From IMG/VR virus record IMGVR_UViG_3300030380_006483: 64,000 nt of DNA. One strand, given 5' to 3'. The notes under the pieces were generated by a model, which saw nothing but the letters and a program-made list of their open reading frames with translations, had not been told where the DNA came from and made no database searches. Position 1 is the stretch's first letter. Every line of letters begins with the position of its first letter. This document shows positions 16,020 through 38,472 of the stretch, one piece after another. Position numbers and translations under genes: made by a program. This DNA is from a virus.

Positions 16020-16067
16020 GCTTCTTCATTAATTTTTCGTATATTTATATGTTGATAATGTAAGCCT

Positions 16068-16868
16068 ATGTATAAATTACGTGATATAATACTTGAACGT
16101 ATAAGCCGTCCTAAAGCAATGATACTTGCTGGATCCCCCGGTGCTGGTAAGTCTTCTTTTATAGAAGATATTGATAATGCTTTAATAATGAATATCGATG
16201 ACATTTTTATTCGTAATTTACGAAATATGGGGGTGTCTTTAGATTTAAAAAATGCTAGTGCTGAAGAACGCAGCAAAGCAGCCTCAGCATTTGCCGCAGC
16301 TAATAAAGAATTTCGTCCTCAAATAATAGATATAATTAAAGGAAAGAAAAATTTTGTATTAGATACCACATCTGCAAATACAGGTACTACTCTTAGATAT
16401 AAACAACAATTAGAAGAATTAGGTTATGAAGTATTAATGGTATATGTTTTTGCTTCATTAGAAAAATCACTAGATAGAAATGAAACAAGGTTTAAACGTT
16501 CACAAGGCAAAGATAGAAGTTTATCACCCGCTATTGTATTACGTACTTGGAATTCTGTAACTCAAAATTATGATTTTTTTAAAAAAGAATTTGGAAATAA
16601 TTTTGTTTCTGTTGTAAATGATAAAGCCTTACAAAAAGGTGAACCACAAAAATCATTAGAAGATTTATTAGATAAGTATGTCACTCCTTATAAACCAACA
16701 GATACTAAACCTAAAACAGATAAACAACAACAAAAATCTGACCAACAAAAAGCAGAATTAAATAATCAAATAACAACTTTTATTAATTCTGATAAGGTAG
16801 AAGATATAAAAAGTGATTCTGTATCTAAAGGTGAAGCAAAATCTAGAGTAAAACAATTTTTCTCATGA
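16068..16868 (+). CDS. P-loop kinase (AAA_33/zeta-toxin/Pnk-kinase-like)
   Basis: Walker A GSPGAGKS, NIDD, VLDTT, R-x-x-x-R lid (DRNETR). Short leader MYKLRDIILE. Confidence 0.75.
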   Translation: MYKLRDIILERISRPKAMILAGSPGAGKSSFIEDIDNALIMNIDDIFIRNLRNMGVSLDLKNASAEERSKAASAFAAANKEFRPQIIDIIKGKKNFVLDTTSANTGTTLRYKQQLEELGYEVLMVYVFASLEKSLDRNETRFKRSQGKDRSLSPAIVLRTWNSVTQNYDFFKKEFGNNFVSVVNDKALQKGEPQKSLEDLLDKYVTPYKPTDTKPKTDKQQQKSDQQKAELNNQITTFINSDKVEDIKSDSVSKGEAKSRVKQFFS

Positions 16869-18616
16869 ACCCAGAAAAAGTAGGTAAACAAATAGCTAAA
16901 AGAATCCTAATGGAAGAAGAAATGACTAAAGTTTCTATCTATCCAGGTGCTTTTAAACCACCACATAAAGGACATGTTGAAACAGCTTTAAGATCTATGG
17001 ATGATAAAACTAATAAGGTAATTATTTTTATGTCTACTAAGGAAAGAGAAAATATAGATGTAGAGGAAGCAAAACAAGTATGGGATTTATATAAAGCTAA
17101 TATACCTGAATTAGAAAAAGTTGAAATACAATTAACACCCACCCCAGTAAAATCTGTTTATGATTATGCTAAAGATAATCCTACACATGATATAAGAGCT
17201 GTATTTGGTAAAGGTGAAGAAGAAAGATTTAAATCATTATTAGATAAGGAAAAATATCCCCACGTAGAAGTATTTGATGCCGGTACTGTAGGTGATTTTT
17301 CAGCTACAACTTTAAGACAAGCTATTAGAGATAAAGATTTAGAAACAATCAGGGACTATATTCCATATTTAATTAATGTAGATGATTTTTTAAATATATT
17401 TCAATTAAATGAAGCTATTGTAGGTGATAAAATCGTATGTGATAATTGTGGGTGGGAATGGAAAATAAAAGATGGAGGAGATGATTTATTTATATGCCAT
17501 AAATGTGGGTATGATAATAACCCTTTAGATGAAGGTTTATACCCTAGATATGATTATAGAAAAGTTAAACAAGTAAGATACAAAGCATCAGATGTTAGAA
17601 CTAATGATCCGGATGCATTAGAGGAAGATCCTAAAAAAGGTACAGGTAAAAAACCTAAGGGGTCTGGTAGAAGATTATATACTGATGAAGATCCAAGCGA
17701 TACAGTAAAAGTTAAATTTAGTACTAGACAGGATATAGTAGATACTTTAGGTAAAACCTCATTTAAAAATAAATCTCATGCTAGGCAATCCCAAGTAATA
17801 AATTTAATACATCAAAGAGTAAGAGCGGCTTTAGGTAGAACTAAAGATCCACTAAAAAAAGCTAAATTAAAATCTGCTTTTGAATATATTAAAAAACGAA
17901 AGGAAGCATCTAAGAAAAAAACACAAAGATTGAAAAAACAAAAAACAAATGAAGGGGTTTTATCTCAAACTAGTCTTGTATTACCAAGAGGTAAGAAAAT
18001 AGTATTACAAGCTGAAGAACAAGACTATGATAGAGGACTAATAGTAGAACTTACCGAAGAAGGAGGATATAAAATATACTATTGGTATGGTGATGATATA
18101 AAAATATATCCTGCTGAAGTTTTAGTAGACGGAGAATCAATAAAACCAGATGCAAGAGAAGTTTATATTAAATTCCATCCAGAATTGGAAAAAGAAAATA
18201 TAGAAGAAGGAGATAAATATTTACAAGAAGCTAGATATAAAAAATTTTTAAATGAAGCTTGGGATGATTCTAAAGCTAAAATTATAAATAGATTTATGGA
18301 TTTTGCTACAGATTATTTATCTATAGATAGACCTAAAATTAAACTTATTAACCAAGAAGGATATACCCAAGAATATAAAAGTTTTGGTGGTTATTTACCT
18401 TCTGAAGAAAAAATATTTGTTGTAGTTAGAAATCGTAATATGGCAGACATTTTACGTACATTAGCACATGAAATGGTCCATCATATGCAAAACCTTGATG
18501 GTAGATTAACACCAACCTCGGGTGAAGATGGATCCCCTGATGAAAATGAAGCAAATTCATTAGCAGCAGTTTTAATGAGAAAATTTGGAAGAGAAAACCC
18601 AGACATTTATGAATAA
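16865..18616 (+). CDS. Multidomain protein: HIGH nucleotidyltransferase, Zn ribbon, basic module, HExxH metallopeptidase
   Basis: YPGAFKPPHKGH and SATTLR motifs; CDNC...CHKC; HEMVH...ENEAN. Modules are separated by LNE/LDE/LEE/TNE/LQE linkers. Confidence 0.75.
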   Translation: MNPEKVGKQIAKRILMEEEMTKVSIYPGAFKPPHKGHVETALRSMDDKTNKVIIFMSTKERENIDVEEAKQVWDLYKANIPELEKVEIQLTPTPVKSVYDYAKDNPTHDIRAVFGKGEEERFKSLLDKEKYPHVEVFDAGTVGDFSATTLRQAIRDKDLETIRDYIPYLINVDDFLNIFQLNEAIVGDKIVCDNCGWEWKIKDGGDDLFICHKCGYDNNPLDEGLYPRYDYRKVKQVRYKASDVRTNDPDALEEDPKKGTGKKPKGSGRRLYTDEDPSDTVKVKFSTRQDIVDTLGKTSFKNKSHARQSQVINLIHQRVRAALGRTKDPLKKAKLKSAFEYIKKRKEASKKKTQRLKKQKTNEGVLSQTSLVLPRGKKIVLQAEEQDYDRGLIVELTEEGGYKIYYWYGDDIKIYPAEVLVDGESIKPDAREVYIKFHPELEKENIEEGDKYLQEARYKKFLNEAWDDSKAKIINRFMDFATDYLSIDRPKIKLINQEGYTQEYKSFGGYLPSEEKIFVVVRNRNMADILRTLAHEMVHHMQNLDGRLTPTSGEDGSPDENEANSLAAVLMRKFGRENPDIYE

Positions 18617-19154
18617 ATACAGTTTAAAAGAATTAATGTTTGAAGATATAGCTAAAGCTTATGACATTTTTGTTGATATGGATGGGGTATTAACTAATTT
18701 TGAAGGTAGATTTGAACAATTTGCCGGAGTTACACCTGATGAATACATATCTCAAAAAACTATTCAAGTTGGAAAAGATAAGGCATATGAGCAATTTTGG
18801 GATTTAGTAGATGAGCAAGTAGGGGTTAGATTTTGGGCAGGGATGCCTTGGATGCCCGAAGGAGAAGGATTATACAAATATATAAAAAAATACAAACCAA
18901 CTATTTTAACATCTCCTTCTAGAAATGAAGCATCTAAAATAGGAAAAGGTGTGTGGGTTAAAAGAAATATGTCTGGCACACCATTAAAATTTGGTTATCA
19001 AGCACAGGGCAAAGCTAAATTCGCGGGTCCAAATAAAATATTAATAGATGATAGAACCGATAATATCTCTGCTTGGAAAGCTGCAGGGGGTATTGGTATA
19101 TTATTTAAATCAACAGAACAAGTAAAAAACGAGTTATCTAAACTAGGGTTATGA
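18609..19154 (+). CDS. HAD-family 5'(3')-deoxyribonucleotidase-like phosphatase
   Basis: FVDMDGVL motif I, ILTS motif II, ILIDD motif IV. ATG at 18609 overlaps the upstream stop and is preferred over the 18585 start in the ORF track. Confidence 0.8.
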   Translation: MNKYSLKELMFEDIAKAYDIFVDMDGVLTNFEGRFEQFAGVTPDEYISQKTIQVGKDKAYEQFWDLVDEQVGVRFWAGMPWMPEGEGLYKYIKKYKPTILTSPSRNEASKIGKGVWVKRNMSGTPLKFGYQAQGKAKFAGPNKILIDDRTDNISAWKAAGGIGILFKSTEQVKNELSKLGL

Positions 19155-19723: not shown

Positions 19724-19760
19724 TATCTTTATATATTTATTACAGAATAATTCTAGAACT

Positions 19761-20378
19761 ATGAAAAAATCAGAAATTAAAAAAATCTTAAAAGAGAATA
19801 TCACTGATTGGTTAAAGGAACGTAATATTCCCGAAGCTGATAGTGGTGATATGGCTTATACAGAAAAAGCTAAAGTAAAAGAAAATAAAATCGAGGACCA
19901 AATTGCTGAATTTTATTACGTAACAAAACCAACTAAAGAATCTAAAGTAGAAGAATTAGTTAAAAGTGGGGACGTATTTGAATTTGCTGTGAGTGGTTTA
20001 ACTCGAGAAGACATCTCAGGTATTTACAAATCAGAAGGTAGAGCAAAATCTGCTGCTAATAAAGTAATTAAAGAAAGAGATATTAAACTTAAAGAAACTT
20101 ATAAAAAAGGTCAAGATAAGTTAAAGAAAATGGAATCTTCAATTGATGAAATTAAAACTCAAATTGAAGGTAAAATGTCTGAAGCTACATCAAATCCAGA
20201 TATGAGAGAATCTTTAACAGCTGAATCTAATAGCTTAATGGAAAAACTTTCTATGTTAGAAGCACAGGTTGAAAGACTAAGAGAAGTGTTAGAAGCAGAA
20301 GGAATGCGTTTCGAAAAGAAAAAGCCTAAAAAAGATAACAAGAAAGACGAAAAAGAGGACGATAAAGATAAAGAGTAA
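19761..20378 (+). CDS. Putative internal head/prohead-associated protein (charged, coiled coil)
   Basis: Late motif upstream; leader MKKSEIKKILKE; K/E-rich. Confidence 0.5.
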   Translation: MKKSEIKKILKENITDWLKERNIPEADSGDMAYTEKAKVKENKIEDQIAEFYYVTKPTKESKVEELVKSGDVFEFAVSGLTREDISGIYKSEGRAKSAANKVIKERDIKLKETYKKGQDKLKKMESSIDEIKTQIEGKMSEATSNPDMRESLTAESNSLMEKLSMLEAQVERLREVLEAEGMRFEKKKPKKDNKKDEKEDDKDKE

Positions 20379-20381
20379 TCA

Positions 20382-21185
20382 ATGGATAAGCTCAAACTCA
20401 GATATCTAATCAGAGAGGCTATAGAAAATGTTGCTAATATTTCATCCAAATTTTCTGTAGGTGATAAAGTAACAACTGTAGATGGAGACACTGCGTTTGT
20501 TACAATGGCAGAACATCCTTTTTATACTGTAGAATTAGAAGAAACTGGTACAACTAAATCATTTAACTTTAAGGATTTAGCTCCTTTTCAAGAAAAAGTA
20601 ATAGCAAAAACATCGGAAGGTATTAAGCTACAAGAGGGAGTTAATGCCTCTCCCGGTTTATTATTTCACCAAGCCCACAATAAACCACTATCAGAATGTA
20701 TTTTTAGAATTGGTTCTAAATCATATATAGAGTTCTACTCTGAAGCAAGAGAATTATTCAATGAAGGTATTCTAAAAATTAATGAATTAGATAAAGATTT
20801 AATTCGTAAAACTGATATTGGTGAATATGGGTTATTTGAAGGTATAGAAGTACCATTAGATGTTCCTTATATTAATGAAAATATTGAGGAAAAAAAGAAA
20901 AAATCAACTAAAAAGGATCCACCTATTGGAAAACCAAAAAGAGGAGGTTCAAAAGCCTACTATGTTTATGTAAGGGATCCTAAAACAAAAAGAATTAAAA
21001 AGGTTTCATTTGGGTCAGGAGGTTTAAGGGCAAAAATTAATAACCCCAAAGCACGTAGAGCATTTGCTGCTAGACATAAATGTTCACAAAAAAATGATAG
21101 AACAAAAGCTTCATATTGGAGCTGTAGGTTGCCAAGATATGCAAAGCAGTTAGGTTTAGGTGCTAATAAAAACACTTTTTGGTAA
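20382..21185 (+). CDS. Modular putative internal head protein with basic Cys/His C-terminal module
   Basis: Leader MDKLKLRYLIRE; linkers LQE, VNA, INE, IEE; C-terminal module K...RHKC...YWSCR. Confidence 0.55.
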   Translation: MDKLKLRYLIREAIENVANISSKFSVGDKVTTVDGDTAFVTMAEHPFYTVELEETGTTKSFNFKDLAPFQEKVIAKTSEGIKLQEGVNASPGLLFHQAHNKPLSECIFRIGSKSYIEFYSEARELFNEGILKINELDKDLIRKTDIGEYGLFEGIEVPLDVPYINENIEEKKKKSTKKDPPIGKPKRGGSKAYYVYVRDPKTKRIKKVSFGSGGLRAKINNPKARRAFAARHKCSQKNDRTKASYWSCRLPRYAKQLGLGANKNTFW

Positions 21186-21186
21186 A

Positions 21187-21444
21187 ATGGCCGCATACAC
21201 TGACTACGATTATAAAGGTTATCATGTAAGACATTTTTCACACGATACTGAAAGCGCTGAGCTAGTATGGCATCGTGACAGAAAAGATAGATATATTACA
21301 CCTATTGGTAAAACTGATTGGCAAATTCAATTTGATGATGAGTTGCCTAGACCAATAGATGATTGTATCTTTATAAAAGAAGGTGTATGGCACAGGGTAA
21401 TAAAAGGCAGTGGATGTTTAAAAATATTAATAGATGAAAATTAG
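21187..21444 (+). CDS. Cupin-like small protein
   Basis: WHRD...WQIQFD...FIKEGVWHRVIKG pattern. ATG at 21187 just after the upstream stop. Confidence 0.55.
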   Translation: MAAYTDYDYKGYHVRHFSHDTESAELVWHRDRKDRYITPIGKTDWQIQFDDELPRPIDDCIFIKEGVWHRVIKGSGCLKILIDEN

Positions 21445-22174
21445 TAAATTAAAAGAAATATTTGAAGATGAAAGTTTAAAGTATGCTTTAGCTACTAATA
21501 TAGCTAAATATGGGCGTCCTCAATCTAAGAAATCAGATAAAAAAGCTAAACTAACTAAAGGTTTAGAGAAAAAAAGAGAAAAAGCAGTGAAAGATTTAAA
21601 AAAATCTATGGGTGAACAAGATATGGGCTCACCATTCCCAGCACCTGATTTAGATAATAAAGGATACATGGCCGCTAGAAAGCTTATAGATCAATTAAGA
21701 TTAACTACATTTAGAAAACTAAATCCGGATGAGTTTGAGGAATTCAAAAGGGAAATAGCCAGTGCTTTTAATATGACATTAAATGAAGCTAAGGATACAG
21801 GAGTTGGATTAGATAGAATTAAATTTTATTTTGATAAATTATATGGTCCTGATTTAAGATTTAATATTAATAGAGATCCTAATAATCCTGAAAGAGATCG
21901 TATTGATGTTCGTGGTTCACAACAAGATTTAGCAGATTTTGGAAGAGCATTACAAGGTGAAAAAATGGAAGGTTACGAAGTATTTTGGACGGATGAGGAG
22001 GATAGAGGAAATATAGTTCGTATCGTTAAATCAGATTCTATAAATGAAAAAAAGAAAAAAGATGGGGATAGATGTCTTAGAATAGCTAGAAGAAAAATGC
22101 CTAAAACATCTGCATACCGTTCTGGATTAATAGTTAAGTGTAGAAAAGGAATGATATGGAAAAAAGAGAAATAA
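21434..22174 (+). CDS. Modular putative internal head protein
   Basis: Leader MKISKLKEIFE; linkers MGE, LNE, INE; basic Cys-containing C-terminal module (DRCLRIA...SAYRSG...KCRKG). Confidence 0.55.
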   Translation: MKISKLKEIFEDESLKYALATNIAKYGRPQSKKSDKKAKLTKGLEKKREKAVKDLKKSMGEQDMGSPFPAPDLDNKGYMAARKLIDQLRLTTFRKLNPDEFEEFKREIASAFNMTLNEAKDTGVGLDRIKFYFDKLYGPDLRFNINRDPNNPERDRIDVRGSQQDLADFGRALQGEKMEGYEVFWTDEEDRGNIVRIVKSDSINEKKKKDGDRCLRIARRKMPKTSAYRSGLIVKCRKGMIWKKEK

Positions 22175-22479
22175 AAAAAGAAACCATTGAATTCAGCCAA
22201 GATTTAAAGGCTTTTACTAAGGGGTTTTTAAAAGAATCTCTTCGTAATTGGTTTAAAAAGGAAAAATGGGTTAGAATAGATACTCAAGGAAATATTACTG
22301 GTCCTTGTGGTACAATGAAAAAAGGTAAAGCTACAACACGTTGTTTACCTTCAGCTAAAGCTAGAAGTTTAACTAAAGCCCAAAGAGCTTCTACAGCTAG
22401 AAAAAAAACAAGGGGTTCTAGAAAAGGTAAACAGTTTGTAAAAAATACTAAAAAGGCAACCGTAAGACTAAAAAAATGA
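22156..22479 (+). CDS. Very basic small protein (putative DNA-binding internal protein)
   Basis: FLKE followed by SLRNWFKKEKWV...GPCG...RCLP...KQF; highly Lys/Arg rich. Confidence 0.55.
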   Translation: MEKREIKKETIEFSQDLKAFTKGFLKESLRNWFKKEKWVRIDTQGNITGPCGTMKKGKATTRCLPSAKARSLTKAQRASTARKKTRGSRKGKQFVKNTKKATVRLKK

Positions 22480-23117
22480 AAAAATTATTATTATTAATTG
22501 TTTTAATGTTAACAGGTTGTAGCAGTTATCAAGTTAATGATAACCGAATAGCAAGTATATTAGCTGTAACTGAAAAAGGAGACACTATTTCTGTCCCTTA
22601 TAAAAAATTTTTAAATGATAGATATACTGAATATACTAGATTTAATTATAATAATAATTGGTATTGGAATAATTGGAGATATGATTGGCAATGGAGATAT
22701 AATTATTGGTATTATGGACAATTAGATTATTACAATAATTACTATAATAATACACCAACACGTAGTTATAATTTTTCAAACCCAAGTAGTAAAAGGGGAG
22801 AAAAAGTAACAGTTATACCACCTGAAAATGATGGGATATATGTACCACCTTCACCTCCAAAACCACCAAAGGATAAAAAAGATAATATACGTATTTGGAA
22901 TAATCCTAGGCCTGCCCCAGGAAATCCAGTAAGAAGAAGTTTTAATCAACCTAATCAACCTTCTTATAGACAAAATAGTTTTAGTGCCCCTAGAAATAAT
23001 TTTAGTGCCCCTAGAAGCTATAGTGCTCCTAGAAGTAGTGCACCCACAAGATCGGCATCTCCTGTTCAAAGTGCGCCATCGGGTGGAAAAGGAAGTTCAA
23101 CTGGCAAAATTAATTAA
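22476..23117 (+). CDS. Lipoprotein with Trp/Tyr/Asn-rich core and Pro/Ser/Arg-rich tail
   Basis: MKKLLLLIVLMLTG-C lipobox; C-terminal (S/F/Y)SAPR repeats at 22978-23043. Confidence 0.7.
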   Translation: MKKLLLLIVLMLTGCSSYQVNDNRIASILAVTEKGDTISVPYKKFLNDRYTEYTRFNYNNNWYWNNWRYDWQWRYNYWYYGQLDYYNNYYNNTPTRSYNFSNPSSKRGEKVTVIPPENDGIYVPPSPPKPPKDKKDNIRIWNNPRPAPGNPVRRSFNQPNQPSYRQNSFSAPRNNFSAPRSYSAPRSSAPTRSASPVQSAPSGGKGSSTGKIN

Positions 23118-23140
23118 TATTTATATAAAAATATATAATC

Positions 23141-23887
23141 ATGGATAAATTTAACTTAAAAGGATATATCAACGAAAATAATCTTGGCGCCTATTCTAGG
23201 TTAAAAGAAAAACTTGATCCAGTAGGAAAAGAAGATAGTGATATTGACAACGATGGTGATGTTGATAAAACAGATGACTATTTAGCTAATAAAAGAAAAG
23301 CTGTATCTAAAGCAATAGCTGATAAAGAAAAAACTGACACTGAAAAAGATGCTAGAAAAGCAAAAGGTATGATGAATGAAGCTACTGATGCTGAGATAAT
23401 TGATTTATTATCTGATATGTTACTTAAATTATCTGATGGGAATACTACAGCTAGACAAGCTGCTTTTGATATAGCTAAAGAACAAGGTGTAAGTTTTAAT
23501 CTTATTATACAAAAATACCAACAAAAAGGTGGTGAGTTACAAGATATAGATTTTGAAACGTTAAAAGAAGATTTAGATGTAGGACATCAAGATGATGAAC
23601 CAAATATGTTAAAGAAAACTTTATATAGATCAGCTAAAATGGCTTCAATGTTATATAAGGAACTAGATAAATTTGATAAATTCCCAACGGAAGTAGATTT
23701 TCCAAATTGGTGGCAAGCCAAAATTATTAAAGCTAATGATTATTTAACTGCGGCATTTGATTATTTAGATGGTGAACAACAAACTGCTAAATTAGATGCT
23801 ATGCAGGAAAAGAAAATTGAAGTAGATGATGATACTAATTTTAAAGTGTCATTATCCCATTTATTAGATAAGCATATAACTAAATAG
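23141..23887 (+). CDS. Modular putative internal head protein
   Basis: Leader MDKFNLKGYINE; DIDNDGDVD loop; linkers LKE, MNE, LKE, MQE; late motif upstream. Confidence 0.55.
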   Translation: MDKFNLKGYINENNLGAYSRLKEKLDPVGKEDSDIDNDGDVDKTDDYLANKRKAVSKAIADKEKTDTEKDARKAKGMMNEATDAEIIDLLSDMLLKLSDGNTTARQAAFDIAKEQGVSFNLIIQKYQQKGGELQDIDFETLKEDLDVGHQDDEPNMLKKTLYRSAKMASMLYKELDKFDKFPTEVDFPNWWQAKIIKANDYLTAAFDYLDGEQQTAKLDAMQEKKIEVDDDTNFKVSLSHLLDKHITK

Positions 23888-25596
23888 TGGATAAAAAAGA
23901 ATTCATACAACTTTTAGAGCAAGAAATAGAGGATTTTGTCCAAACTCAAGCCGAAAAGATTGTCTCATTTGAAGATGATCCCAAGGAATATATTCTGCAA
24001 AAATACCCCTCATTAAAGGAAACACTTGTTGATTTAATGACGGAAAGTTTTGATGAGTACATTACTGGTATCTATGTAATGGCTCCTAAACCAACTACAT
24101 TTAAAGTACTACTTCACAATGGTCAACATTTCTTTTTAATCTATGCTAAAGATTCTTACATAGCAAAAATTTCAGGTAAAAAATATTATTTATCAGATTT
24201 AGGAGCAGAAGAATATGCTATTAAAGCAATAGCGGATTTACTTACAATGGGTATGCCTCCAGGAGCAGAAGGTCCTGATCAAGAAGCTGATAATGATATG
24301 ACTAAGGATGCTGATGAAACCCCAGATGCAGAACCAGCAGATGATACAGGAGGGGATGAAGAAGAACTAGCAGAAAGTGTTGATGATATTCCTGATAGTG
24401 AAAAAGATGATTATGGTCGTCCATTTGTAGATCCAAAAGGTTCAAGAACGTTTATGGAGCCAGATGAAATGAAGCCTTTTAATAGATTTAAAAAAATGAT
24501 GGATAAATTAGAAAAAAAATTACCATCTAAAAAGCTTCGTATCTTAAAAGAGCAAGAAGAAAAAAAAACTGATCTAAAGACTGATCTTATTAATTTAATA
24601 CGTTCTAGTGAACTTTCTGATGAACAACTTGCTGTTTATATAAAATCTGTTAAAAATAAAGGAAAAAAAGATAGTTTAACAAACCAATTAACTTCAAAAG
24701 GATACACCCCAGATAGATTCAAATTTGGGGAAAAAGCAATTGAAAAAATAAACAGAGATTTAGATAATGCTGATTTAGATGCTTATTTTAAATATCTTGA
24801 AAATCCTAAATCTCTAAAAAGTTTATCTCCTTCAGGAAAATTTTATCAAGAATTAGGTTTAGATAAAGAATTAGTAAATTCATTTGTTAATATAGAACCA
24901 GGGGCTGACCAAGGAGGATCCTCTATTGGTAAAGCGGAATTGTTTTTAAGTTTATTTTTTAAAGATGTAGGTAATTCAGAAGGTGGAATAGATCCTGAAA
25001 CGGGTGAAATTAAAAAAGCAAAAGGTGATAATAATTGGGAAGGTGTAGGAAACTTAGAAGTAAAAGGTACTAATGGTAGATTAGGACAACAAGGAGGTAG
25101 AGGGCTAGATGCTACTAATACTTTTGAAAATTTATCTAAAGACTTACTTTCTGATGAACAATTAAAAGAATTTGGGGATAGATTTTTTAAAAAACCTTGG
25201 ACAATGTCTACATCAATAGCTGAGTTATATAAATTAGCTATGCAAAATAAAGTTCCTGAAACTGAAATACAAAGTAAAATAAATAAGGCTTTAGATGCCG
25301 TATATTTTAATCAAAATTTAGCTAATGATTATTTTAAAACAGAAACAGATTTTACAGATTTAGAAGAAATAACTAAAAACTTGTTAAAATTAAATGCCGC
25401 TTCTTATTCAAAAGCTAAAGGCATAGATGCTGTTTTATTTGTAGACACAGCAGGAGGTGAAAATAGATATGTTATAGTAAAAAAATCTGACTATGATGAA
25501 ACTATTGATAATAAAAAATTTTGGACTACAACTAAGGGACCTACTGGTTTCCAATGGACAAATGTTAACCCTAATTTAGTAGTTGCTAAAGATTAA
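23887..25596 (+). CDS. Modular protein with C-terminal PD-(D/E)XK restriction-endonuclease-like domain
   Basis: GTG start; acidic linker ending LAE; ILKE; then GKAELFL...KGD...LEVKGTNGRLG. Confidence 0.5.
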   Translation: MDKKEFIQLLEQEIEDFVQTQAEKIVSFEDDPKEYILQKYPSLKETLVDLMTESFDEYITGIYVMAPKPTTFKVLLHNGQHFFLIYAKDSYIAKISGKKYYLSDLGAEEYAIKAIADLLTMGMPPGAEGPDQEADNDMTKDADETPDAEPADDTGGDEEELAESVDDIPDSEKDDYGRPFVDPKGSRTFMEPDEMKPFNRFKKMMDKLEKKLPSKKLRILKEQEEKKTDLKTDLINLIRSSELSDEQLAVYIKSVKNKGKKDSLTNQLTSKGYTPDRFKFGEKAIEKINRDLDNADLDAYFKYLENPKSLKSLSPSGKFYQELGLDKELVNSFVNIEPGADQGGSSIGKAELFLSLFFKDVGNSEGGIDPETGEIKKAKGDNNWEGVGNLEVKGTNGRLGQQGGRGLDATNTFENLSKDLLSDEQLKEFGDRFFKKPWTMSTSIAELYKLAMQNKVPETEIQSKINKALDAVYFNQNLANDYFKTETDFTDLEEITKNLLKLNAASYSKAKGIDAVLFVDTAGGENRYVIVKKSDYDETIDNKKFWTTTKGPTGFQWTNVNPNLVVAKD

Positions 25597-25610
25597 AATA
25601 TTTATAACAT

Positions 25611-25847
25611 ATGGATAATTTCGATCTAAAAAAATATTTAGTAGAAGGTAAATTAACCGAACAAGAAGAAGAAATGGATTTTTCTTATACTGAACTAACT
25701 GATGATGAAAAAGATATGGTTAGTGATGTACTTGAAGATATATATGAAAAGATAAATCCAACTAATGATATAAAAAAATACACAGGATTATTTAAATTCA
25801 TTGATAGCTGGTTTGAAGCTAGAGGTGGTATAGGATCAGGAGCATAA
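25611..25847 (+). CDS. Small acidic protein with conserved leader MDNFDLKKYLVEGKLTE
   Basis: 78 aa; late motif at 25597. Confidence 0.7.
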   Translation: MDNFDLKKYLVEGKLTEQEEEMDFSYTELTDDEKDMVSDVLEDIYEKINPTNDIKKYTGLFKFIDSWFEARGGIGSGA

Positions 25848-25857
25848 TATAAATAAT

Positions 25858-26139
25858 ATGAATAATTTTAATTTAAAAAAATACTTAGCTGAAGGTCACT
25901 TATTAAAGGAGGCCGTAATTTGGAACTGGGATGGAGATAGAAACTCTCTAGAGGAAGTTCCACCAAAATTTAAAGCTGCTGTAAAAGCAGAATTAGAAGA
26001 TCCATTAAGTGACGAACAATTTGAAGAAGCTTTTGATGCTGTTAAAAATTCTTTTGCTGATGAAGCAGGTAGAGGTAGCATGAAATTTAAATCAGACGAT
26101 TGGGCTGAAATGATTGATATGGATTACGATCCAGATTAA
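25858..26139 (+). CDS. Small acidic protein with conserved leader MNNFNLKKYLAEGHLLKE
   Basis: 93 aa; first 47 nt are 45/47 identical to the start of the next gene. Confidence 0.7.
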   Translation: MNNFNLKKYLAEGHLLKEAVIWNWDGDRNSLEEVPPKFKAAVKAELEDPLSDEQFEEAFDAVKNSFADEAGRGSMKFKSDDWAEMIDMDYDPD

Positions 26140-26174
26140 CTTTAAAAATAAATGTATAATTAAAATAAATAAAA

Positions 26175-26483
26175 ATGAATAATTTTAATTTAAAAAAATA
26201 CTTAGCAGAAGGTCGCTTATTTGAATCAATTAATCTTGACATTGAAGATGATATAGCAATACTAAGTGGGGATTCAGGTGAATACGAAGGTGAAATTAAA
26301 GATGGAAAAGTATCATTTTCTATTATATATGATAATTTAGATTTTAGAATAACAGATAAATTTAATAAAAATAATATTGAAGATTTTTTAGGTAAAAGTC
26401 ATGCATTTGTAGAATTAGCTAAAAAATATGACCATAATTGGGATATTGAACGTGATTTAGTTGGTATAACAATAAAATTATAA
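26175..26483 (+). CDS. Small acidic protein with conserved leader MNNFNLKKYLAEGRLFE
   Basis: 102 aa; shares only the leader with the two preceding genes. Confidence 0.7.
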   Translation: MNNFNLKKYLAEGRLFESINLDIEDDIAILSGDSGEYEGEIKDGKVSFSIIYDNLDFRITDKFNKNNIEDFLGKSHAFVELAKKYDHNWDIERDLVGITIKL

Positions 26484-26540
26484 TAAAAAACATACAGACT
26501 ATATTCATAGCATAGTCGTTTATTTTAGTTAATAGGAGCT

Positions 26541-26574
26541 GTGGCCCAATTTTTTGGAGCCACAACTTTTTTTT
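26541..26574 (+). terminator. Rho-independent terminator
   Basis: GTGGC-CCAA-TTTT-TTGG-A-GCCAC hairpin followed by AAC and a T8 run. Confidence 0.7.
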
Positions 26575-26584
26575 CGTATATTTA
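26553..26584 (+). promoter_or_regulatory. Bacteroidota-type promoter-like site upstream of the FAD oxidoreductase
   Basis: TTTG (26553-56), N20, TATATTTA (26577-84). Confidence 0.55.
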
Positions 26585-29689: not shown

Positions 29690-30508
29690 ATGGATAATTT
29701 TAGTTTACAAAACTGGAGAATCAGAGTAGTTAACGAAGACGCATTTAGAGAAGGAATGGGAGAATTAAATGTATATGGGTATCAAACTAACCATTTTGAT
29801 ATATGCCCAGGTGCCCAAACTTTATTTAAGGACATTTTAAGAGGAGAATTTACTGATGGCATACCTAGTGCTAAGGAACAAGATAAAATTGTTGAATTAG
29901 CTAAATTACATGATATTTTATTTAAATTAGAAAAAATTGCTCTTAAGGATCAGGGTGATGCAAAGGTAGTATTTGATAAAGTTGTAGAGACGGCTTCTGA
30001 TATCTACACATTAGGTACTGAAATTGGATTAGATCAAAATTCCGACTTAAGATATATTCAAGGCCATGTAGAAAGGGTTAATGATGCAGCTAGAGGAACA
30101 GATGATATTGGTAGACCCTTAGATGAAGATAAAGCTGAAGATATGGCAGCTTTAATTAAACAAAGAGATGCCTTAATAAAAAAACATTCTGATGCTGGGG
30201 AAATGTTTAGTGATAAAGTCTATGATCTTGATAGCCAAATTCAAAAAATAGCAAAATCAGAAAGCTTAGATGAAATTGAATTAGAAATCCCAGGTGAAGA
30301 AAACGCACCTGCAGGGGATAAGGTTTTAAATAAAAAGTTAACTAAAAATGATAAAATTATTGCAGCTTATAAAGATATAGAGCAAGAAATTAAAGATAGT
30401 ATTCAAAAAATTAAATCAGGTAATGAACTTGAAAAAAAGACTGCTATGGATTTCTTAAAATCTAATCAAGATACTATAAAAGCTTACAATAATTTAAAGA
30501 AGGTTTGA
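29690..30508 (+). CDS. Modular putative internal head protein
   Basis: Leader MDNFSLQNWRIRVVNE; linkers FRE, MGE, LDE, LDE; late motif upstream. Confidence 0.5.
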   Translation: MDNFSLQNWRIRVVNEDAFREGMGELNVYGYQTNHFDICPGAQTLFKDILRGEFTDGIPSAKEQDKIVELAKLHDILFKLEKIALKDQGDAKVVFDKVVETASDIYTLGTEIGLDQNSDLRYIQGHVERVNDAARGTDDIGRPLDEDKAEDMAALIKQRDALIKKHSDAGEMFSDKVYDLDSQIQKIAKSESLDEIELEIPGEENAPAGDKVLNKKLTKNDKIIAAYKDIEQEIKDSIQKIKSGNELEKKTAMDFLKSNQDTIKAYNNLKKV

Positions 30509-34730: not shown

Positions 34731-35579
34731 ATGAAAGTAAAACACAACAAGTACAAGAATACTGGTATTCTGTTTGAACTTCTAGTAAGGAAGATTACTT
34801 CCGATGCTATGAATAACAGCAACTCTAAGGCAGCATCTTTAGTAAAAAAATATTTTACTAAAAGTGAACTAGCCAATGAAAATAAACTATACCAGACAAT
34901 AAACAATTCAATATCATTATCAGAAGGTAAAGCTGAATCAGTATTATCTACAATACTTGATTTATCTAGAAAATTAGATAAGGATAAATTATCAAAAGAG
35001 AAATATAACCTTATTAAAGAAATAAAAGAAAACTTTGATATGGTTGATTTTTTCCAAGCTAAAATTAAAAGTTATAAACTTTTAGCATCAACATATATTC
35101 TTTTAGAATCACATAATAATAGAAAATTTGCAAATCCCGAATCTATTATTACATCAAAAATTACTATTTTAGAGCATATTACTTCAAATCCTGATACTAA
35201 AATATCTTTAACACCTTTAGTTGAAGATTTAATGAAATTAGATAAAGGAACACGTGCGCTTACTTATAAATTAATGCTTGAAAAATATAATACTAAATTT
35301 GATGATTTAACTACTGATCAAAAAGAAGTATTAAAAGAATACATAAATAGTGCTGCAGATGCCCCAAAACTTAAAGAATTTTTAAATTCTAAATTTGAAG
35401 CAATATCTACTATATTAAGAGAAAATATAGATAAAATAACTGAACCTGCACTTAAAATTAAAATCCAAGAAGTTATAAACCTTATTGAACCTATTTTAGA
35501 ATCTAGAAAGATAAAAGATGATCACCTTGTAGCGCTACTACAATATCTTGAACTTTCTAAGGAAATAAAGGCAGTATGA
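34731..35579 (+). CDS. Putative prohead core protein
   Basis: 282 aa helical protein between portal and protease, the position of T4 genes 67/68. Confidence 0.5.
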   Translation: MKVKHNKYKNTGILFELLVRKITSDAMNNSNSKAASLVKKYFTKSELANENKLYQTINNSISLSEGKAESVLSTILDLSRKLDKDKLSKEKYNLIKEIKENFDMVDFFQAKIKSYKLLASTYILLESHNNRKFANPESIITSKITILEHITSNPDTKISLTPLVEDLMKLDKGTRALTYKLMLEKYNTKFDDLTTDQKEVLKEYINSAADAPKLKEFLNSKFEAISTILRENIDKITEPALKIKIQEVINLIEPILESRKIKDDHLVALLQYLELSKEIKAV

Positions 35580-36655
35580 CAAAAATTAGGATAAAAGGAT
35601 TAAATAAAGAAATGAGCACCACAGGAACTGGTGCTTCCTTTGCACCTGGTACGGGTGCGCAATATGCTTCACCTAAATCATTCAAAAAAAAAGATGAAAT
35701 AGGAGAACCATTCACTAAACCTAATTCTTCTGTTCCTAATAGAAAATCTAAATTTATAGATTACAAGCAATTATTTGAAAAAGCTAAAAAAGCAATAAAA
35801 TTTAACCCTATTGATGATTTTACAGATTCACAAGCATGGGCTGGTGATAACACTGGGTATGATATGGACACTCAGGATGCTGCTTCAGTATTAGAATTAG
35901 CTAAAACATCTAAGGACGGTGAATTTAAAGTAGGTGATGTTCAAATTGAAAAGGGAACTAGATATGTTGTAACAGATGTAGACCCAGTTACAGGTGGAAT
36001 TTCTTGGGATGTAGAAAATGTACCCGCTTTTGATTCAGTATATAAAGAATTTGATGAATTAAGAAAGGCAATAGCAACTTTAGATAGAAAAACTGATGAT
36101 ACCGTTGTAGATGATATAGCTACTAAAATTAAAGCTGAGTTTAATAGATATAGAACTCATATTAGAAAAAATTATCCTGATGAATACAAAAGATTCCAGA
36201 CCAATGAAAATATAAATGAAGCAAGTGGAGGACCATCAAGAAGTATTCTTATAAAATTAATTCATGATATAGGAGCACAAAGATTTGCTGATATTATTGC
36301 TGATTTAAGAGATGAAAATTTACAGGATCAAATAGTAGCAGCATTTGGTCTATATAAAGATGAAGAAGGATCAGAATTTATGAAACCTGATATATTAAGG
36401 GAAGCAAGATATTCACAATTTAAAAAAGAATCACAATTCCGTACACCAACCCAACAATTACATATAGCTGTGCGTGAAATTAGACGTAAAATAGATGAAA
36501 TGTCTAAAGTAGTATCATTTACAGAGAGAATGAGAACTGAATTAAAATCAAGTAATGAAGGTATGACTTATTTAAATCGTACACGTAATGCTATATCAAA
36601 AATTAATGAAAAATTACAAGATTTAAATAACAGAATTAAAGGATTAACCGAGTAG
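35576..36655 (+). CDS. Putative prohead core/internal protein with a major-capsid-like N-terminal segment
   Basis: NKE-MSTTGTGASFAPGTGAQYA; further linkers LFE, LE, INE, LRE. Confidence 0.6.
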   Translation: MTKIRIKGLNKEMSTTGTGASFAPGTGAQYASPKSFKKKDEIGEPFTKPNSSVPNRKSKFIDYKQLFEKAKKAIKFNPIDDFTDSQAWAGDNTGYDMDTQDAASVLELAKTSKDGEFKVGDVQIEKGTRYVVTDVDPVTGGISWDVENVPAFDSVYKEFDELRKAIATLDRKTDDTVVDDIATKIKAEFNRYRTHIRKNYPDEYKRFQTNENINEASGGPSRSILIKLIHDIGAQRFADIIADLRDENLQDQIVAAFGLYKDEEGSEFMKPDILREARYSQFKKESQFRTPTQQLHIAVREIRRKIDEMSKVVSFTERMRTELKSSNEGMTYLNRTRNAISKINEKLQDLNNRIKGLTE

Positions 36656-36688
36656 TACAGAGGACAAAGACGATAAATATTTATATAC

Positions 36689-37855: not shown

Positions 37856-38472
37856 TGGCTCAAACACTATTAATAGAGTATTCGGTATTTACTCCAAAGA
37901 ATACCCAAATTACTGAAGGTATTTCGGGTAATAAAAATATGATTGTTAACGGTGTCGTTCAACGTGCCGAAGAATTCAATCACAATGGTAGAAGATATCC
38001 ATTTGAAATTTTAAAAAGAGAAGTAGATAAATATATTGAAGGCCCTATTAGAGAAAATAGAGCTTTAGGTGAATTAGACCATCCAGAATCATCTGTAATT
38101 AATTTAAAAAATGCTTCTCATAATATAAAAGAATTATATTTTGAAGGAAATGATTTAATGGGTAGTATAGAAATTTTACCTACTCCTTCAGGTAATATCT
38201 TAAAAGAATTATTTAAAAATAATATTACGGTTGGAATTTCTTCTAGAGGTATGGGTTCTGTAAAACCTTTAGGTGAAGGTAAGGTAGAAGTAGAAGATGA
38301 TTTTGAATTATTATGTTGGGATTTTGTATCAACACCATCTACACATGGGGCTTTTGTAAAACCCGTAGGGTTAAACGAAGGACGAAATCATAATTCTAAT
38401 CCATATATTAAATTAAACAAAATTATATCTGATATTATTTGTACTCAATCAGGTATTTGTTGTTTAAAATAA
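37855..38472 (+). CDS. gp21: Prohead core protease
   Basis: NHNGRRY, ALGELDHP, NASH, VGISSRGMGS, WDFVSTPSTHGA motifs of the T4 gp21 (U9) family. Confidence 0.95.
   Translation: MAQTLLIEYSVFTPKNTQITEGISGNKNMIVNGVVQRAEEFNHNGRRYPFEILKREVDKYIEGPIRENRALGELDHPESSVINLKNASHNIKELYFEGNDLMGSIEILPTPSGNILKELFKNNITVGISSRGMGSVKPLGEGKVEVEDDFELLCWDFVSTPSTHGAFVKPVGLNEGRNHNSNPYIKLNKIISDIICTQSGICCLK

What the first reader, a model, noticed from the sequence alone, without database searches (positions are those of the whole stretch)
16865..18616. Polyprotein of unrelated modules separated by prohead-protease-type sites
Seen: NTase domain, LNE, 40-aa Zn ribbon (17414-17533), LDE, short peptide, LEE, basic module (17627-17953), TNE, beta module, IEE/LQE/LNE, HExxH...E.EAN metallopeptidase (18257-18616; HEMVH at 18467). 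Each domain boundary coincides with an x-x-E motif. The same architecture recurs in 20382, 21434, 23141, 23887, 29690, 35576 and 36689. Known: HExxH...EAN is the IrrE/ImmA-type gluzincin signature, and T4 gp21 cleaves after Glu. Inference: the phage strings cargo domains into polyproteins that are packaged once and released by the head protease, a strategy mainly associated with eukaryotic viruses.
Basis: partly seen in the sequence, partly recalled or inferred. Interest (0 to 1): 0.78.

Follow-up and report, generated by a model that had tools for sequence, protein, structure and literature searches.

The report
Phage cargo polyprotein with Glu-ended cassettes
This gene of an uncultured marine T4-like phage strings an NMNAT-like enzyme, a zinc ribbon, small modules and a zinc protease into one protein, and its relatives swap these modules almost always right after a glutamate that looks like a head-protease cutting site, so it is probably a packaged, cut-apart cargo protein, though no cutting or packaging has been shown.

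Summary

The x-x-E coincidence inside this one protein is not significant (p=0.17). More than 2,600 close metagenomic homologs and 3,823 50%-identity representatives gain, lose and reorder whole cassettes. In 46 of 48 mutually dissimilar left contexts, the residue before a cassette is Glu (background 7.8%; p~1e-48). Over all occurrences it is 572 E, 0 D, 8 other. P3 is L/I/V/M/F in 51 of 74.

Neighbours 20382, 21434, 23141, 23887 and 36689 behave the same way, and at least one cassette is shared between genes.

The phage has a gp21-type prohead protease and a scaffold with about 25 [MV]-D-E|A repeats. Adjacent genes carry leaders like the T4 capsid-targeting sequence. Distant NMNAT-like homologs in T4-like cyanophages carry a T4-like leader and were found in purified virions.

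Best reading (about 0.55): head-packaged cargo polyproteins cut after h-x-E by the prohead protease. Cleavage and packaging are inferred, not shown. The C-terminal domain is a minimal zincin; ImmA/IrrE membership was not demonstrated.

This is a new variant of two known kinds: T4 internal proteins and Aravind-type polyvalent proteins.

The parts
16865..17413 (+). Residues 1-183. N-terminal amphipathic helix (1-17, ends I-L-M-E) plus an NadD/NMNAT/PPAT-fold HIGH nucleotidyltransferase. The module ends L-N-E.
   Evidence: PPHKGH and SATTLR motifs. pLDDT >90. Foldseek matches to NadD, NadM and PPAT, E 5.6e-7, TMt about 0.65. Pfam CTP_transf_like 17.3 bits, below the 21-bit cut-off. The helix stays with the module when the module is internal in homologs.
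17414..17533 (+). Residues 184-223: zinc-ribbon cassette (C-x2-C-x17-C-x2-C), ends L-D-E.
   Evidence: Present or absent as a unit in homologs (P0009 lacks exactly this stretch). Preceded by Glu in 39 of 39 occurrences across 5 dissimilar contexts.
17534..17626 (+). Residues 224-254: short GLYPRY peptide cassette, predicted disordered, ends L-E-E.
   Evidence: Absent as a unit in P0014, P0056 and P0063. pLDDT <50. Preceded by Glu in 99 of 99 occurrences.
17627..17953 (+). Residues 255-363: basic, largely helical cassette (DPKKGTGKKPKG...), the most widely shuffled module. Ends T-N-E.
   Evidence: Helices 288-360, pLDDT 85-94. Found at many positions in proteins up to 1,580 aa. Free-standing 96-aa gene without h-x-E ends in Pelagibacter podophage HTVC033P. 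No Pfam family. The nearest named ESM Atlas cluster is DUF5771 at 0.84, a lead only.
17954..18208 (+). Residues 364-448: beta-rich cassette, ends I-E-E.
   Evidence: Absent as a unit in P0012, P0047 and P0063. Strands 378-436 but low confidence.
18209..18256 (+). Residues 449-464: short peptide (GDKYLQEARYKKFLNE) with L-Q-E and L-N-E.
   Evidence: Replaced or absent in P0082 and P0087, where another cassette joins the zincin directly after L-N-E or L-S-E.
18257..18616 (+). Residues 465-583: minimal zincin metallopeptidase domain (HEMVH ... ENEAN). The protein ends I-Y-E, then stop.
   Evidence: Model pLDDT 89.6 with helix, three strands, HExxH helix and Glu helix. VIA-align 2 structural matches: Wss1 Z 9.2, YbeY 9.1, SPRTN 8.9, PprI 7.5, minigluzincins 7.2-7.3, ArdC 6.8. 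H, E, H, E, N invariant in 24 diverse homologs, which continue after I-[FY]-E when more cassettes follow.
16068..16868 (+). Upstream gene: Zeta-toxin/AAA_33-type kinase with a 10-aa leader MYKLRDIILE. In other phages it is fused into the same polyproteins.
   Evidence: Pfam tags on identical contigs. PHROGs. Fused in P0173 after I-K-E. Leader seen.
18585..19154 (+). Downstream gene: 5'-deoxyribonucleotidase (HAD/NT5C type). With the ATG start at 18609 its N-terminus is the leader-like MNKYSLKELMFE. In other phages it is a C-terminal cassette of family members.
   Evidence: phrog_2643, 9e-26. Fused in at least 8 representatives. An x-x-E lies 5-15 residues before the DMDG strand in 9 of 9.
19761..25596 (+). 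Neighbouring cassette proteins 19761, 20382, 21434, 23141 and 23887, with 11-12-aa N-terminal leaders ending h-x-E.
   Evidence: Syntenic orthologs in L005-L007 differ by whole cassettes after F-I-N-E, M-D-E, L-K-E, I-I-K-E and similar sites. The GDTYEK cassette of the P0001 family sits in the 21434 ortholog of L005. One cassette occupies different positions in three orthologs.
25611..26483 (+). Three small unrelated ORFs sharing only the leader MNNFNLKKYLAE|G (or MDNFDLKKYLVE|G). They look like T4 internal-protein genes.
   Evidence: Orthologous loci carry 0-2 different small genes with the same leader.
29690..30508 (+).
   Evidence: Sequence pattern only. No comparative test was run.
34731..37855 (+). 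Three genes between portal and protease (34731, 35576, 36689), in the position of T4 prohead-core genes 67 and 68. These are expected protease substrates.
   Evidence: Gene order: portal 32773, protease 37855, scaffold 38600, MCP 39863. Orthologs of 36689 keep an N-terminal domain ending I-I-R-E and diverge right after it. The 35576 N-terminus resembles MCP residues 50-81.
37855..38472 (+). Prohead maturation protease of the T4 gp21 type.
   Evidence: phrog_207, E 3.6e-50. 54% identical to the annotated 'prohead core protein serine protease' of Flavobacterium phage immuto.
38600..39835 (+). Scaffold-like acidic protein with about 25 repeats K-D-[MV]-D-E|A-K. It serves as an internal calibrator of the protease's site.
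   Evidence: Its position between protease and MCP matches T4 gene 22.
16041..16048 (+). Upstream motif ATATTTAT, 27 nt before the kinase/polyprotein operon. The same motif precedes portal, head-core, neck and fibre genes.
   Evidence: 26 matches on the + strand against 6 on the - strand. 22 of the + strand matches lie within 60 nt upstream of a start codon.

Best explanation
P0001 belongs to a block of cargo genes (about 16068-30508) of an uncultured marine T4-like myovirus.

Each gene encodes one or several small autonomous cassettes, and every cassette carries its own C-terminal h-x-E site (h = L/I/V/M, x mostly N/K/D).

The proposed path is:
1. The proteins are made together with the virion proteins.
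2. They enter the prohead core, helped by short amphipathic N-terminal leaders that end in h-x-E, like the T4 capsid-targeting sequence.
3. The gp21-type prohead protease (37855) cuts them after each exposed Glu.
4. This releases the NMNAT-like nucleotidyltransferase, the zinc ribbon, the basic module, the beta module and the zincin as separate head-internal proteins and peptides.
5. These are injected with the DNA.

Because every cassette brings its own site, cassettes can be inserted, lost, reordered and moved between genes without breaking release. This explains the mosaic seen in thousands of homologs.

Shown: the architecture, the cassette mosaic, the invariant Glu, the protease gene, the scaffold repeats, and the leaders.

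Inferred: packaging, cleavage, the identity of the protease, and injection.
For: 1. Cassette gain, loss and reordering among homologs.
2. Glu at P1 in 74 of 76 distinct and 46 of 48 mutually dissimilar left contexts. Occurrences are 572 E, 0 D, 8 other. P3 is hydrophobic in 51 of 74 against a 25% background. In T4, Asp at the P1 position blocks processing (PMC9026906).
3. Published gp21 specificity is L/I-X-E. A gp21-type protease is in the window.
4. The scaffold-like protein has about 25 [MV]DE|A repeats, and the MCP has V-V-E|A at the position expected from T4 gp23.
5. Cassette proteins without any zincin (20382, 21434, 23141, 23887, 36689 families) have the same junctions and share a cassette with the P0001 family, so a trans-acting protease is needed.
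6. Leaders: MYKLRDIILE, MDKKEFIQLLE and MNNFNLKKYLAE here, and MIRLQDILAE and MIKLIDILFE on relatives whose first cassette is the basic module, against the T4 CTS MKTYQEFIAE.
7. The cyanophage 'cytitidyltransferase', whose NTase is related to that of P0001 (E 2e-5), starts M[KR]xFxxF[LI]xE|A. It was detected in purified virions of S-SZBM1, S-CREM2 and others.
8. Independent domain limits agree. The Pfam SOD domain in P0173 is flanked by IDE/IRE and VAE/LEE/LNE. The nucleotidase cassette is preceded by x-x-E in 9 of 9 fusions.
9. The basic module lacks h-x-E ends where it is a free-standing gene in a podophage.
10. The junctions lie in predicted disordered linkers.
11. The operon shares an upstream motif with the virion genes.
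Against: - There is no proteomic or biochemical evidence for this protein or any close homolog.
- The gene sits in a conserved primase, exonuclease, kinase, NTase, nucleotidase neighbourhood. That context looks like cytoplasmic nucleotide metabolism.
- The N-terminal helix of P0001 is 17 aa, unlike the 10-aa CTS. It is retained when the NTase is internal and is missing from many family members.
- N-terminal h-x-E within 20 residues is common here: 10 of 35 ORFs outside the block have it, the terminase among them.
- Some junctions have S, T, Q or K at P3.
- h-x-E sites also occur inside folded modules.
- The cyanophage proteome hits are low-abundance and concern distant homologs.
Confidence: 0.55

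Rival explanations
1. Self-processing polyvalent protein. The embedded C-terminal zincin cuts the polyprotein at the h-x-E junctions, and cuts the zincin-less neighbours in trans. This would happen in the cytoplasm, in the head or after injection, as proposed in general for MPTase-containing polyvalent proteins.
For: The zincin has all catalytic residues invariant and a confident zincin fold. It is kept in every close homolog while the middle cassettes vary. Iyer et al. 2017 predict autoproteolytic release by MPTase domains and cite P1 DdrB.
Against: - By my own knowledge, not tested here, P1-Glu specificity is not known for zincins of this fold.
- P1-Glu specificity is the established rule for gp21-type proteases.
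- Scaffold and MCP sites of the same type exist in the same phage.
- Four or more neighbouring cassette proteins have no zincin.
- In cyanophage S-SRM01 the zincin is a separate 132-aa gene next to a single-module NTase that has nothing to release. This suggests the zincin has a function of its own.
Confidence: 0.12
2. An uncleaved multidomain enzyme. The protein would work as one chain in the cytoplasm, for example as a nucleotide-metabolism or anti-defence enzyme complex with kinase and nucleotidase partners. The h-x-E would then be a linker or recombination signature that is tolerated at domain joints, not a protease site.
For: - The replication and nucleotide-metabolism gene context is conserved as far as Flavobacterium phage immuto.
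- Rosetta-stone fusions with kinase, nucleotidase and Pol-beta NTase suggest a shared pathway.
- The NTase and zincin association is conserved as adjacent genes in cyanophage.
- The within-protein site enrichment is not significant.
Against: - A single invariant Glu that is never Asp (572:0), with a hydrophobic P3 and otherwise free flanks, in 46 of 48 unrelated contexts, is what a protease site looks like. No structural reason for it is known.
- The DNA at the joints shares only the codons themselves, with no long repeats for recombination.
- Conserved mini-cassettes of 14-31 aa bounded by Glu on both sides make little sense as linkers.
- The same module lacks these ends outside T4-like phages.
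Confidence: 0.25
3. The mosaic is an artefact of metagenome assembly or gene calling: chimeric contigs, fused neighbouring genes.
For: All homologs are from metagenomes. Some start codons are miscalled, for example P0013 and P0174.
Against: - The same architectures recur on many independent contigs and samples (the 629-aa form on 82 contigs, the window's form on 6).
- The ORFs are uninterrupted.
- A cultured phage genome (immuto) has a 907-aa member.
Confidence: 0.02

Closest known systems
T4 internal proteins (IPI, IPII, IPIII, Alt) with capsid-targeting sequence, processed by prohead protease gp21
   Same: - A gp21-type protease is encoded next to scaffold and MCP.
- Short N-terminal leaders end in L/I-x-E.
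- There is a hypervariable set of unrelated small genes sharing only the leader.
- Cleavage is predicted after Glu.
- Cargo is presumably injected to act early.
   Different: - T4 internal proteins are single-module proteins that lose one short propeptide (Alt also loses a C-terminal piece).
- Here several unrelated modules are strung in one chain with a site after each.
- The modules are shuffled between positions and between genes.
- P2 is biased to N/K/D.
- The leader of P0001 is 17 aa and travels with the NTase module.
Polyvalent proteins of phages and conjugative elements (Iyer, Burroughs, Anand, de Souza, Aravind 2017; PMC5512222)
   Same: - Many unrelated enzymatic and binding domains sit in one phage polypeptide.
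- A zincin-like MPTase is the recurrent hub domain.
- ParB-like, NTase and Zn-ribbon modules occur in relatives.
- The predicted roles are delivery with the DNA and release of the domains by proteolysis.
- The analogy to RNA-virus polyproteins has already been drawn.
   Different: - That work proposes release by the embedded MPTase and defines no junction motif.
- A term search of the paper found no mention of HIGH-type NTases or zeta-type kinases, and its only mention of T4-like phages concerns ARTs that are not in polyvalent proteins.
- Here the joints carry the signature of the head protease, and zincin-less proteins share them.
Proteolytic maturation of head and ejection proteins in phiKZ, 201phi2-1 and SPN3US (gp175/gp245; PMC10052503, PMC9026906)
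   Same: Divergent gp21 homologs cut many head-internal proteins after Glu at a three-residue motif. There are multiple cuts per protein, and many enzymes are packaged.
   Different: In those phages the motif is S/A/G-x-E. The multiple cuts mostly destroy long N-terminal propeptides rather than separate functional modules. No cassette shuffling at the sites has been described.
Virion-associated NMNAT-like / 'cytitidyltransferase' proteins of T4-like cyanophages (S-SZBM1_140, S-CREM2 ORF154, S-SCSM1, S-CBWM1)
   Same: - A HIGH-motif nucleotidyltransferase distantly related to P0001 residues 23-200 (E 2e-5).
- An N-terminal leader ending [LI]-x-E|A.
- A neighbourhood with primase and, in S-SRM01, a stand-alone copy of the same zincin.
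- Some carry extra C-terminal cassettes (S-RIM2), one of which is shared with window ORF 23141.
   Different: Mostly single-module proteins. About 20% identity. Their cleavage has not been mapped either.
ImmA/IrrE (peptidase M78) and minigluzincins / Wss1-SprT zincins
   Same: HExxH plus a downstream Glu in an E-x-E-A-N helix. Same helix, three-strand, two-helix core.
   Different: - No Pfam M78 hit.
- Best fold matches are Wss1, SPRTN and YbeY rather than IrrE.
- No partner repressor.
- Own conserved N-R-N-x-A-D-I-L-R and H-H-x-Q-N motifs.

Membership tests
T4-type capsid-targeted, gp21-processed internal proteins | The genome encodes a gp21 (S77) family prohead protease in the head gene cluster. 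| tested here: met
   ORF 37855-38472 matches phrog_207 at 3.6e-50, between the portal-side core genes and scaffold/MCP.
T4-type capsid-targeted, gp21-processed internal proteins | A short N-terminal targeting leader (about 10 aa) ending in L/I-x-E. | tested here: inconclusive
   P0001 has a 17-aa helix ending I-L-M-E. 'LLxE' is kept in most homologs, but the helix travels with the NTase module and is absent in many members. Neighbours 16068, 19761, 20382, 21434, 23141, 23887 and 25611-26483 have 10-12-aa leaders of the T4 type. The pattern also occurs in 10 of 35 other ORFs.
T4-type capsid-targeted, gp21-processed internal proteins | Cleavage C-terminal to Glu at L/I-x-E. | not testable with these tools
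   Sequence only. Glu at P1 in 46 of 48 independent cassette joints, never Asp. P3 is L/I/V/M/F in 69%.
T4-type capsid-targeted, gp21-processed internal proteins | Physical presence in the mature head. | not testable with these tools
   Indirect only. Distant NMNAT-like homologs were detected in CsCl-purified virions of several T4-like cyanophages (PMC9146016, PMC10665884, PMC9602691).
Polyvalent proteins (Iyer et al. 2017) | Two to fifteen unrelated effector-type domains in one polypeptide of a phage or conjugative element. | tested here: met
   P0001 has five foldable modules. Relatives of up to 1,580 aa add SOD, Zeta-type kinase, NT5C, a Pol-beta NTase-like N-terminal domain and a ParB-like DGNHR-motif cassette (the last two read from sequence motifs), and a second HExxH domain.
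Polyvalent proteins (Iyer et al. 2017) | A zincin-like MPTase domain with HExxH and a Glu-bearing second helix. | tested here: met
   The topology and catalytic residues match the description in PMC5512222.
Polyvalent proteins (Iyer et al. 2017) | Delivery into the host with the DNA. | not testable with these tools
   Inference only.
ImmA/IrrE metallopeptidase (Pfam PF06114, MEROPS M78) | Significant match to the family profile. | tested here: not met
   No PF06114 hit at E<=0.01 for P0001. The only weak, sub-threshold hits in a homolog are DUF3920 and DUF6782.
ImmA/IrrE metallopeptidase (Pfam PF06114, MEROPS M78) | Fold closest to IrrE/PprI. | tested here: inconclusive
   PprI Z 7.5 and IrrE Foldseek E 0.02. 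Wss1 (9.2), YbeY (9.1) and SPRTN (8.9) score higher. All are zincins.
HIGH-motif nucleotidyltransferases (NadD/NMNAT/PPAT; Pfam CTP_transf_like) | (H/T)xGH and ISxTxxR-type motifs on a Rossmann-like fold. | tested here: met
   PPHKGH at residues 32-37 and SATTLR at 146-151. Foldseek probability 1.0 to NadD, NadM and PPAT.
HIGH-motif nucleotidyltransferases (NadD/NMNAT/PPAT; Pfam CTP_transf_like) | Profile match above the curated cut-off, and a defined substrate. | tested here: not met
   PF01467 scores 17.3 bits against a cut-off of 21. The substrate cannot be told from sequence, so an NMNAT assignment is not justified.

The most novel reading that the evidence does not exclude
Marine T4-like phages keep a common pool of plug-and-play cargo cassettes. 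Any small domain that ends in h-x-E can be spliced into any of several head-targeted carrier genes, is packaged once through the carrier's leader, and is then set free by the prohead protease. This would be a generic, evolvable delivery bus for injected enzymes and anti-defence factors, in use across thousands of phage lineages in the ocean. It would also explain why NMNAT-like enzymes keep turning up in cyanophage virions.
Probability: 0.45. Interest if true: 0.82.

Novelty: new variant of a known kind. Interest (0 to 1): 0.72.

Why it matters
If the joints are real head-protease sites, an abundant group of ocean phages packs a far larger and more changeable set of enzymes into the capsid than T4 does. 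It would do so through a simple rule: a leader plus Glu-ended cassettes.

That rule would have three uses:
- It lets one predict injected proteins from sequence alone in uncultured phages.
- It explains the puzzling virion-associated NMNAT-like enzymes of cyanophages.
- It gives a natural design principle for loading foreign proteins into T4-type heads.

It also separates two ideas that are usually merged for polyvalent proteins: release by an embedded zincin versus release by the morphogenetic protease. The question can be tested directly in a cultured relative, Flavobacterium phage immuto.

Tried and rejected
- **Single-protein test.** Enrichment of [LIVM]xE in low-pLDDT linkers of P0001 was not significant (p=0.17).
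- **Automated breakpoint mapping.** I tried global pairwise alignment, BLAST HSP ends, k-mer walking and E-INS-i alignment. All were blurred by reordered cassettes and K/N/E-rich joints. Only 25 of 100 'clean' indels could be placed exactly between two Glu, although all lay within a few residues of one. I replaced this with signature-anchored counting of the residue before each cassette. The cassette start signatures were chosen by eye, which is a possible bias. The diversity of left contexts and the independent Pfam limits argue against circularity.
- **Column-wise E/D counts on alignment A1**. These are unreliable at joints because of the mosaic.
- **Idea that joints are former gene ends.** Rejected: ORFs in the window do not preferentially end in Glu (4 of 57).
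- **Idea of DNA-level recombination sites.** Rejected: joints share only TTA-xAx-GAA-G.
- **Database searches that gave nothing useful.** Megablast of the region against cultured phages found no match. A PDB sequence search with the zincin gave only spurious or motif-level hits. Pfam on the variable C-terminal domains of the 23887 and 21434 orthologs found nothing.
- **Whole genome.** None is held for this window.
- **Upstream motif ATATTTAT.** It is not the T4 late-promoter word TATAAATA in the coding orientation, so I do not call it a late promoter.


Full report
**What is there.** ORF 16865-18616 (+) is a single 583-aa reading frame, found letter for letter on six metagenome contigs.
- residues 1-183, HIGH-motif nucleotidyltransferase (PPHKGH, SATTLR);
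- 184-223, C-x2-C-x17-C-x2-C zinc ribbon;
- 224-254, short peptide;
- 255-363, basic module;
- 364-448, beta module;
- 449-464, short peptide;
- 465-583, HEMVH...ENEAN domain.

Each module ends in x-x-E.

AlphaFold2 with 112 homologs gives confident models for the NTase, the helical part of the basic module and the C-terminal domain. It places joints 183, 223, 254, 363 and 448 in segments with pLDDT <50. The NTase matches NadD, NadM and PPAT structures. The C-terminal domain, modelled alone at pLDDT 89.6, has the helix, three strands, HExxH helix and Glu helix of a minimal zincin. Its best matches are Wss1 (Z 9.2), YbeY (9.1) and SPRTN (8.9). PprI/IrrE (7.5), minigluzincins (about 7.2) and the ArdC peptidase (6.8) follow. 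No Pfam M78 match was found. 'Zincin metallopeptidase' is therefore supported, and 'ImmA/IrrE family' is not.

**Context.** The window is an AT-rich (about 30% GC) T4-like phage. It carries terminase 31165, portal 32773, three core-position genes, gp21-type protease 37855 (phrog_207, 3.6e-50), an acidic scaffold-like protein 38600, MCP 39863, and then neck and fibre genes.

The polyprotein lies upstream, in the order primase, exonuclease, Zeta/AAA_33 kinase, P0001, 5'-deoxynucleotidase. The cultured Flavobacterium phage immuto has the same order, with a 907-aa version annotated as NMNAT and a protease 54% identical to the window's.

**Is the x-x-E coincidence more than chance?** Not within this one protein. 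Five of 13 [LIVM]xE sites fall in the 22% of residues with low confidence (p=0.17).

The homologs settle it. The word-index search scored 2,627 proteins at E<=0.001. The exhaustive search of 50%-identity representatives found 3,823. Close homologs range from 454 to 863 aa, and they differ by whole cassettes:
- the zinc ribbon is cleanly absent in P0009;
- the GLYPRY peptide is absent in P0014;
- the beta module is absent in P0012;
- other cassettes (GDTYEK, KLCKRG, IGDSTATPY, IGxxLSNY, NIDP, a ParB-like one) are inserted, and in different orders.

Automated breakpoint mapping was blurred by this reordering. I therefore anchored on the conserved start of ten cassette types and read the residue before each, across 269 family members. 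It is Glu in 74 of 76 distinct left contexts, and in 46 of 48 contexts that share at most 4 of 11 flanking residues (binomial p~1e-48 against 7.8% Glu). Over all occurrences the count is 572 E, 0 D, 8 other. P3 is L/I/V/M/F in 51 of 74 (background 25%, p~5e-15). P2 is mostly N, K or D.

Limits set independently of my eye agree. In the 1,547-aa member P0173, the Pfam superoxide-dismutase domain (617-813) is flanked by IDE606/IRE610 and by VAE811/LEE816/LNE821. The kinase is preceded by I-K-E and the nucleotidase by I-K-E. In nine fusions the nucleotidase is preceded by an x-x-E 5-15 residues before its first strand. The zincin itself ends I-[FY]-E and is followed by further cassettes in some members. 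P0001 stops exactly at that Glu.

**The same rule in the neighbours.** Syntenic loci from three related phages show the same behaviour in the 20382, 21434, 23141 and 23887 families. These proteins differ by cassettes inserted after F-I-N-E, M-D-E, L-K-E, I-I-K-E and similar sites. One cassette sits near the N-terminus in one ortholog and near the C-terminus in two others. The GDTYEK cassette of the P0001 family sits inside the 21434 ortholog of L005. Cassettes are therefore drawn from a pool shared between genes.

Eleven orthologs of 36689 keep an N-terminal domain that ends I-I-R-E and diverge right after it. The kinase and the nucleotidase, which are separate genes here, are cassettes of P0001-like proteins elsewhere.

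**Why a protease site, and which protease.** An invariant Glu that is never Asp, with a hydrophobic residue two positions before it and otherwise free flanks, is the published rule for T4 gp21: L/I-X-E, with Asp at P1 blocking processing (PMC9026906).

The window encodes such a protease. Its scaffold-like protein carries about 25 repeats K-D-[MV]-D-E|A-K, and the MCP has V-V-E|A where T4 gp23 is cut.

The neighbouring cassette proteins have no zincin, so a trans-acting enzyme is required. By my own knowledge, not tested here, Glu specificity is not known for zincins of this fold. In cyanophage S-SRM01 the same zincin is a stand-alone 132-aa gene next to a single-module NTase. It therefore probably has a job of its own.

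The DNA at the joints shares only the codons, and ORFs do not generally end in Glu. In a Pelagibacter podophage the basic module is a free 96-aa gene without Glu-ended flanks.

**Evidence for packaging.** Genes 16068 to 30508 mostly begin with 10-17-aa amphipathic leaders ending h-x-E. Three unrelated small ORFs (25611-26483) share only the leader MNNFNLKKYLAE|G, which is the T4 internal-protein pattern. Relatives that start with the basic module begin MIRLQDILAE|A or MIKLIDILFE|M. The kinase begins MYKLRDIILE. The T4 targeting sequence is MKTYQEFIAE.

The widespread 'cytitidyltransferase' of T4-like cyanophages has an NTase related to that of P0001 (E 2e-5). It begins M[KR]xFxxF[LI]xE|A in all five phages examined. 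This protein was detected in CsCl-purified virions of S-SZBM1 and S-CREM2, and NMNAT-like proteins are reported repeatedly in cyanophage virion proteomes (PMC9146016, PMC10665884, PMC9602691).

The operon is preceded by the word ATATTTAT, which also precedes portal, core, neck and fibre genes (26 on the + strand against 6 on the - strand; 22 within 60 nt of a start).

**What weighs against.** Nothing shows cleavage or packaging of this protein. The replication-type neighbourhood and the Rosetta-stone fusions with kinase and nucleotidase would also fit a cytoplasmic multi-enzyme. The 17-aa helix of P0001 belongs to the NTase module and is missing in many members. Leader-like N-termini are common in this K/E-rich proteome, even in the terminase. 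A quarter of the joints have S/T/Q/K at P3.

**Relation to what is known.** T4 internal proteins and their targeting sequence, Glu-specific head proteases of T4 and the giant phages, and the polyvalent proteins of Iyer et al. 2017 are all established. Iyer et al. already compared polyvalent proteins with RNA-virus polyproteins and proposed release by embedded zincins.

I could not find in the held literature three things. One is a defined joint motif. Another is a cassette pool shared among genes. The third is the link between polyvalent-type proteins and the morphogenetic protease in T4-like marine phages.

**Verdict.** It is a new variant of known kinds, with confidence about 0.55 for head-protease release, 0.12 for zincin self-processing and 0.25 for no cleavage. 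Two first-reader notes on this genome (e1-5810570, e1-5810581) flagged the same system and the shared leader. Neither had been followed up.

Noticed in passing
window 25611-26483: Three tandem small ORFs (78, 93 and 102 aa) are unrelated except for a shared 12-aa leader MNNFNLKKYLAE|G (or MDNFDLKKYLVE|G). Related phages carry 0-2 different small genes with the same leader at this spot. This is a hypervariable locus like the T4 internal-protein locus.
   Followed up: partly
window 35576-35671 and 40010-40105: The first 32 residues of ORF 35576 are 56% identical to MCP residues 50-81 (TTGTGA.F.PGTG.QYA), in both cases right after a candidate cleavage site (L-N-K-E|M and V-V-E|A). A head-core protein may mimic the mature N-terminal arm of the capsid protein.
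   Followed up: no
window 38600-39835: The scaffold-like protein has about 25 tandem repeats of K-D-[MV]-D-E-A-K, which is an array of predicted protease sites. In phage immuto the corresponding gene is annotated 'DNA polymerase phi-like', probably because of its acidic repeats.
   Followed up: partly
window, e.g. 16041, 19733, 23117, 29667, 32748, 34704, 41570, 44117, 50787, 53442: The word (T)AATATTTAT occurs 26 times on the + strand against 6 on the - strand. 22 of the + strand copies lie within 60 nt upstream of start codons, mainly of virion genes and of the cassette-gene operons. It is a candidate promoter element of this phage group and is not the T4 late word TATAAATA in the coding orientation.
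   Followed up: partly
P0173 (1,547-aa family member, metagenome): One polyprotein combines the HIGH NTase, a second HExxH domain, a complete Fe/Mn superoxide dismutase (Pfam 1.6e-28), the basic module, the zincin, a Zeta-type kinase and the 5'-nucleotidase. A phage-borne SOD as a cassette is unusual.
   Followed up: no
L011 (Synechococcus phage S-SRM01, 164797-166750): A stand-alone 132-aa copy of the zincin lies directly upstream of the CTS-bearing 'cytidyltransferase'. The NTase and zincin pairing is therefore conserved as neighbours in cyanophages and as a fusion in this lineage, which hints at a functional link.
   Followed up: no
window 23141-23887 and L018 (S-RIM2 gene SWTG_00144): The acidic motif L-D-[PA]-V-G-K-E-D-x-D-I-D-N-D-G-D-x-D (a Ca-binding-like loop) of ORF 23141 also occurs as a C-terminal extension of the 1,021-aa S-RIM2 'cytidyltransferase'. 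This explains the phrog_764 hit of 23141.
   Followed up: no
window 23887-25596 and orthologs L005:18025-20007, L006:17588-19288, L007:18085-19680: The orthologs share a conserved N-terminal domain of about 180 aa and an acidic linker. After K-I-I-K-E or R-I-L-K-E they carry completely different C-terminal domains of 300-400 aa with no Pfam match. This looks like a carrier with exchangeable effector heads.
   Followed up: partly
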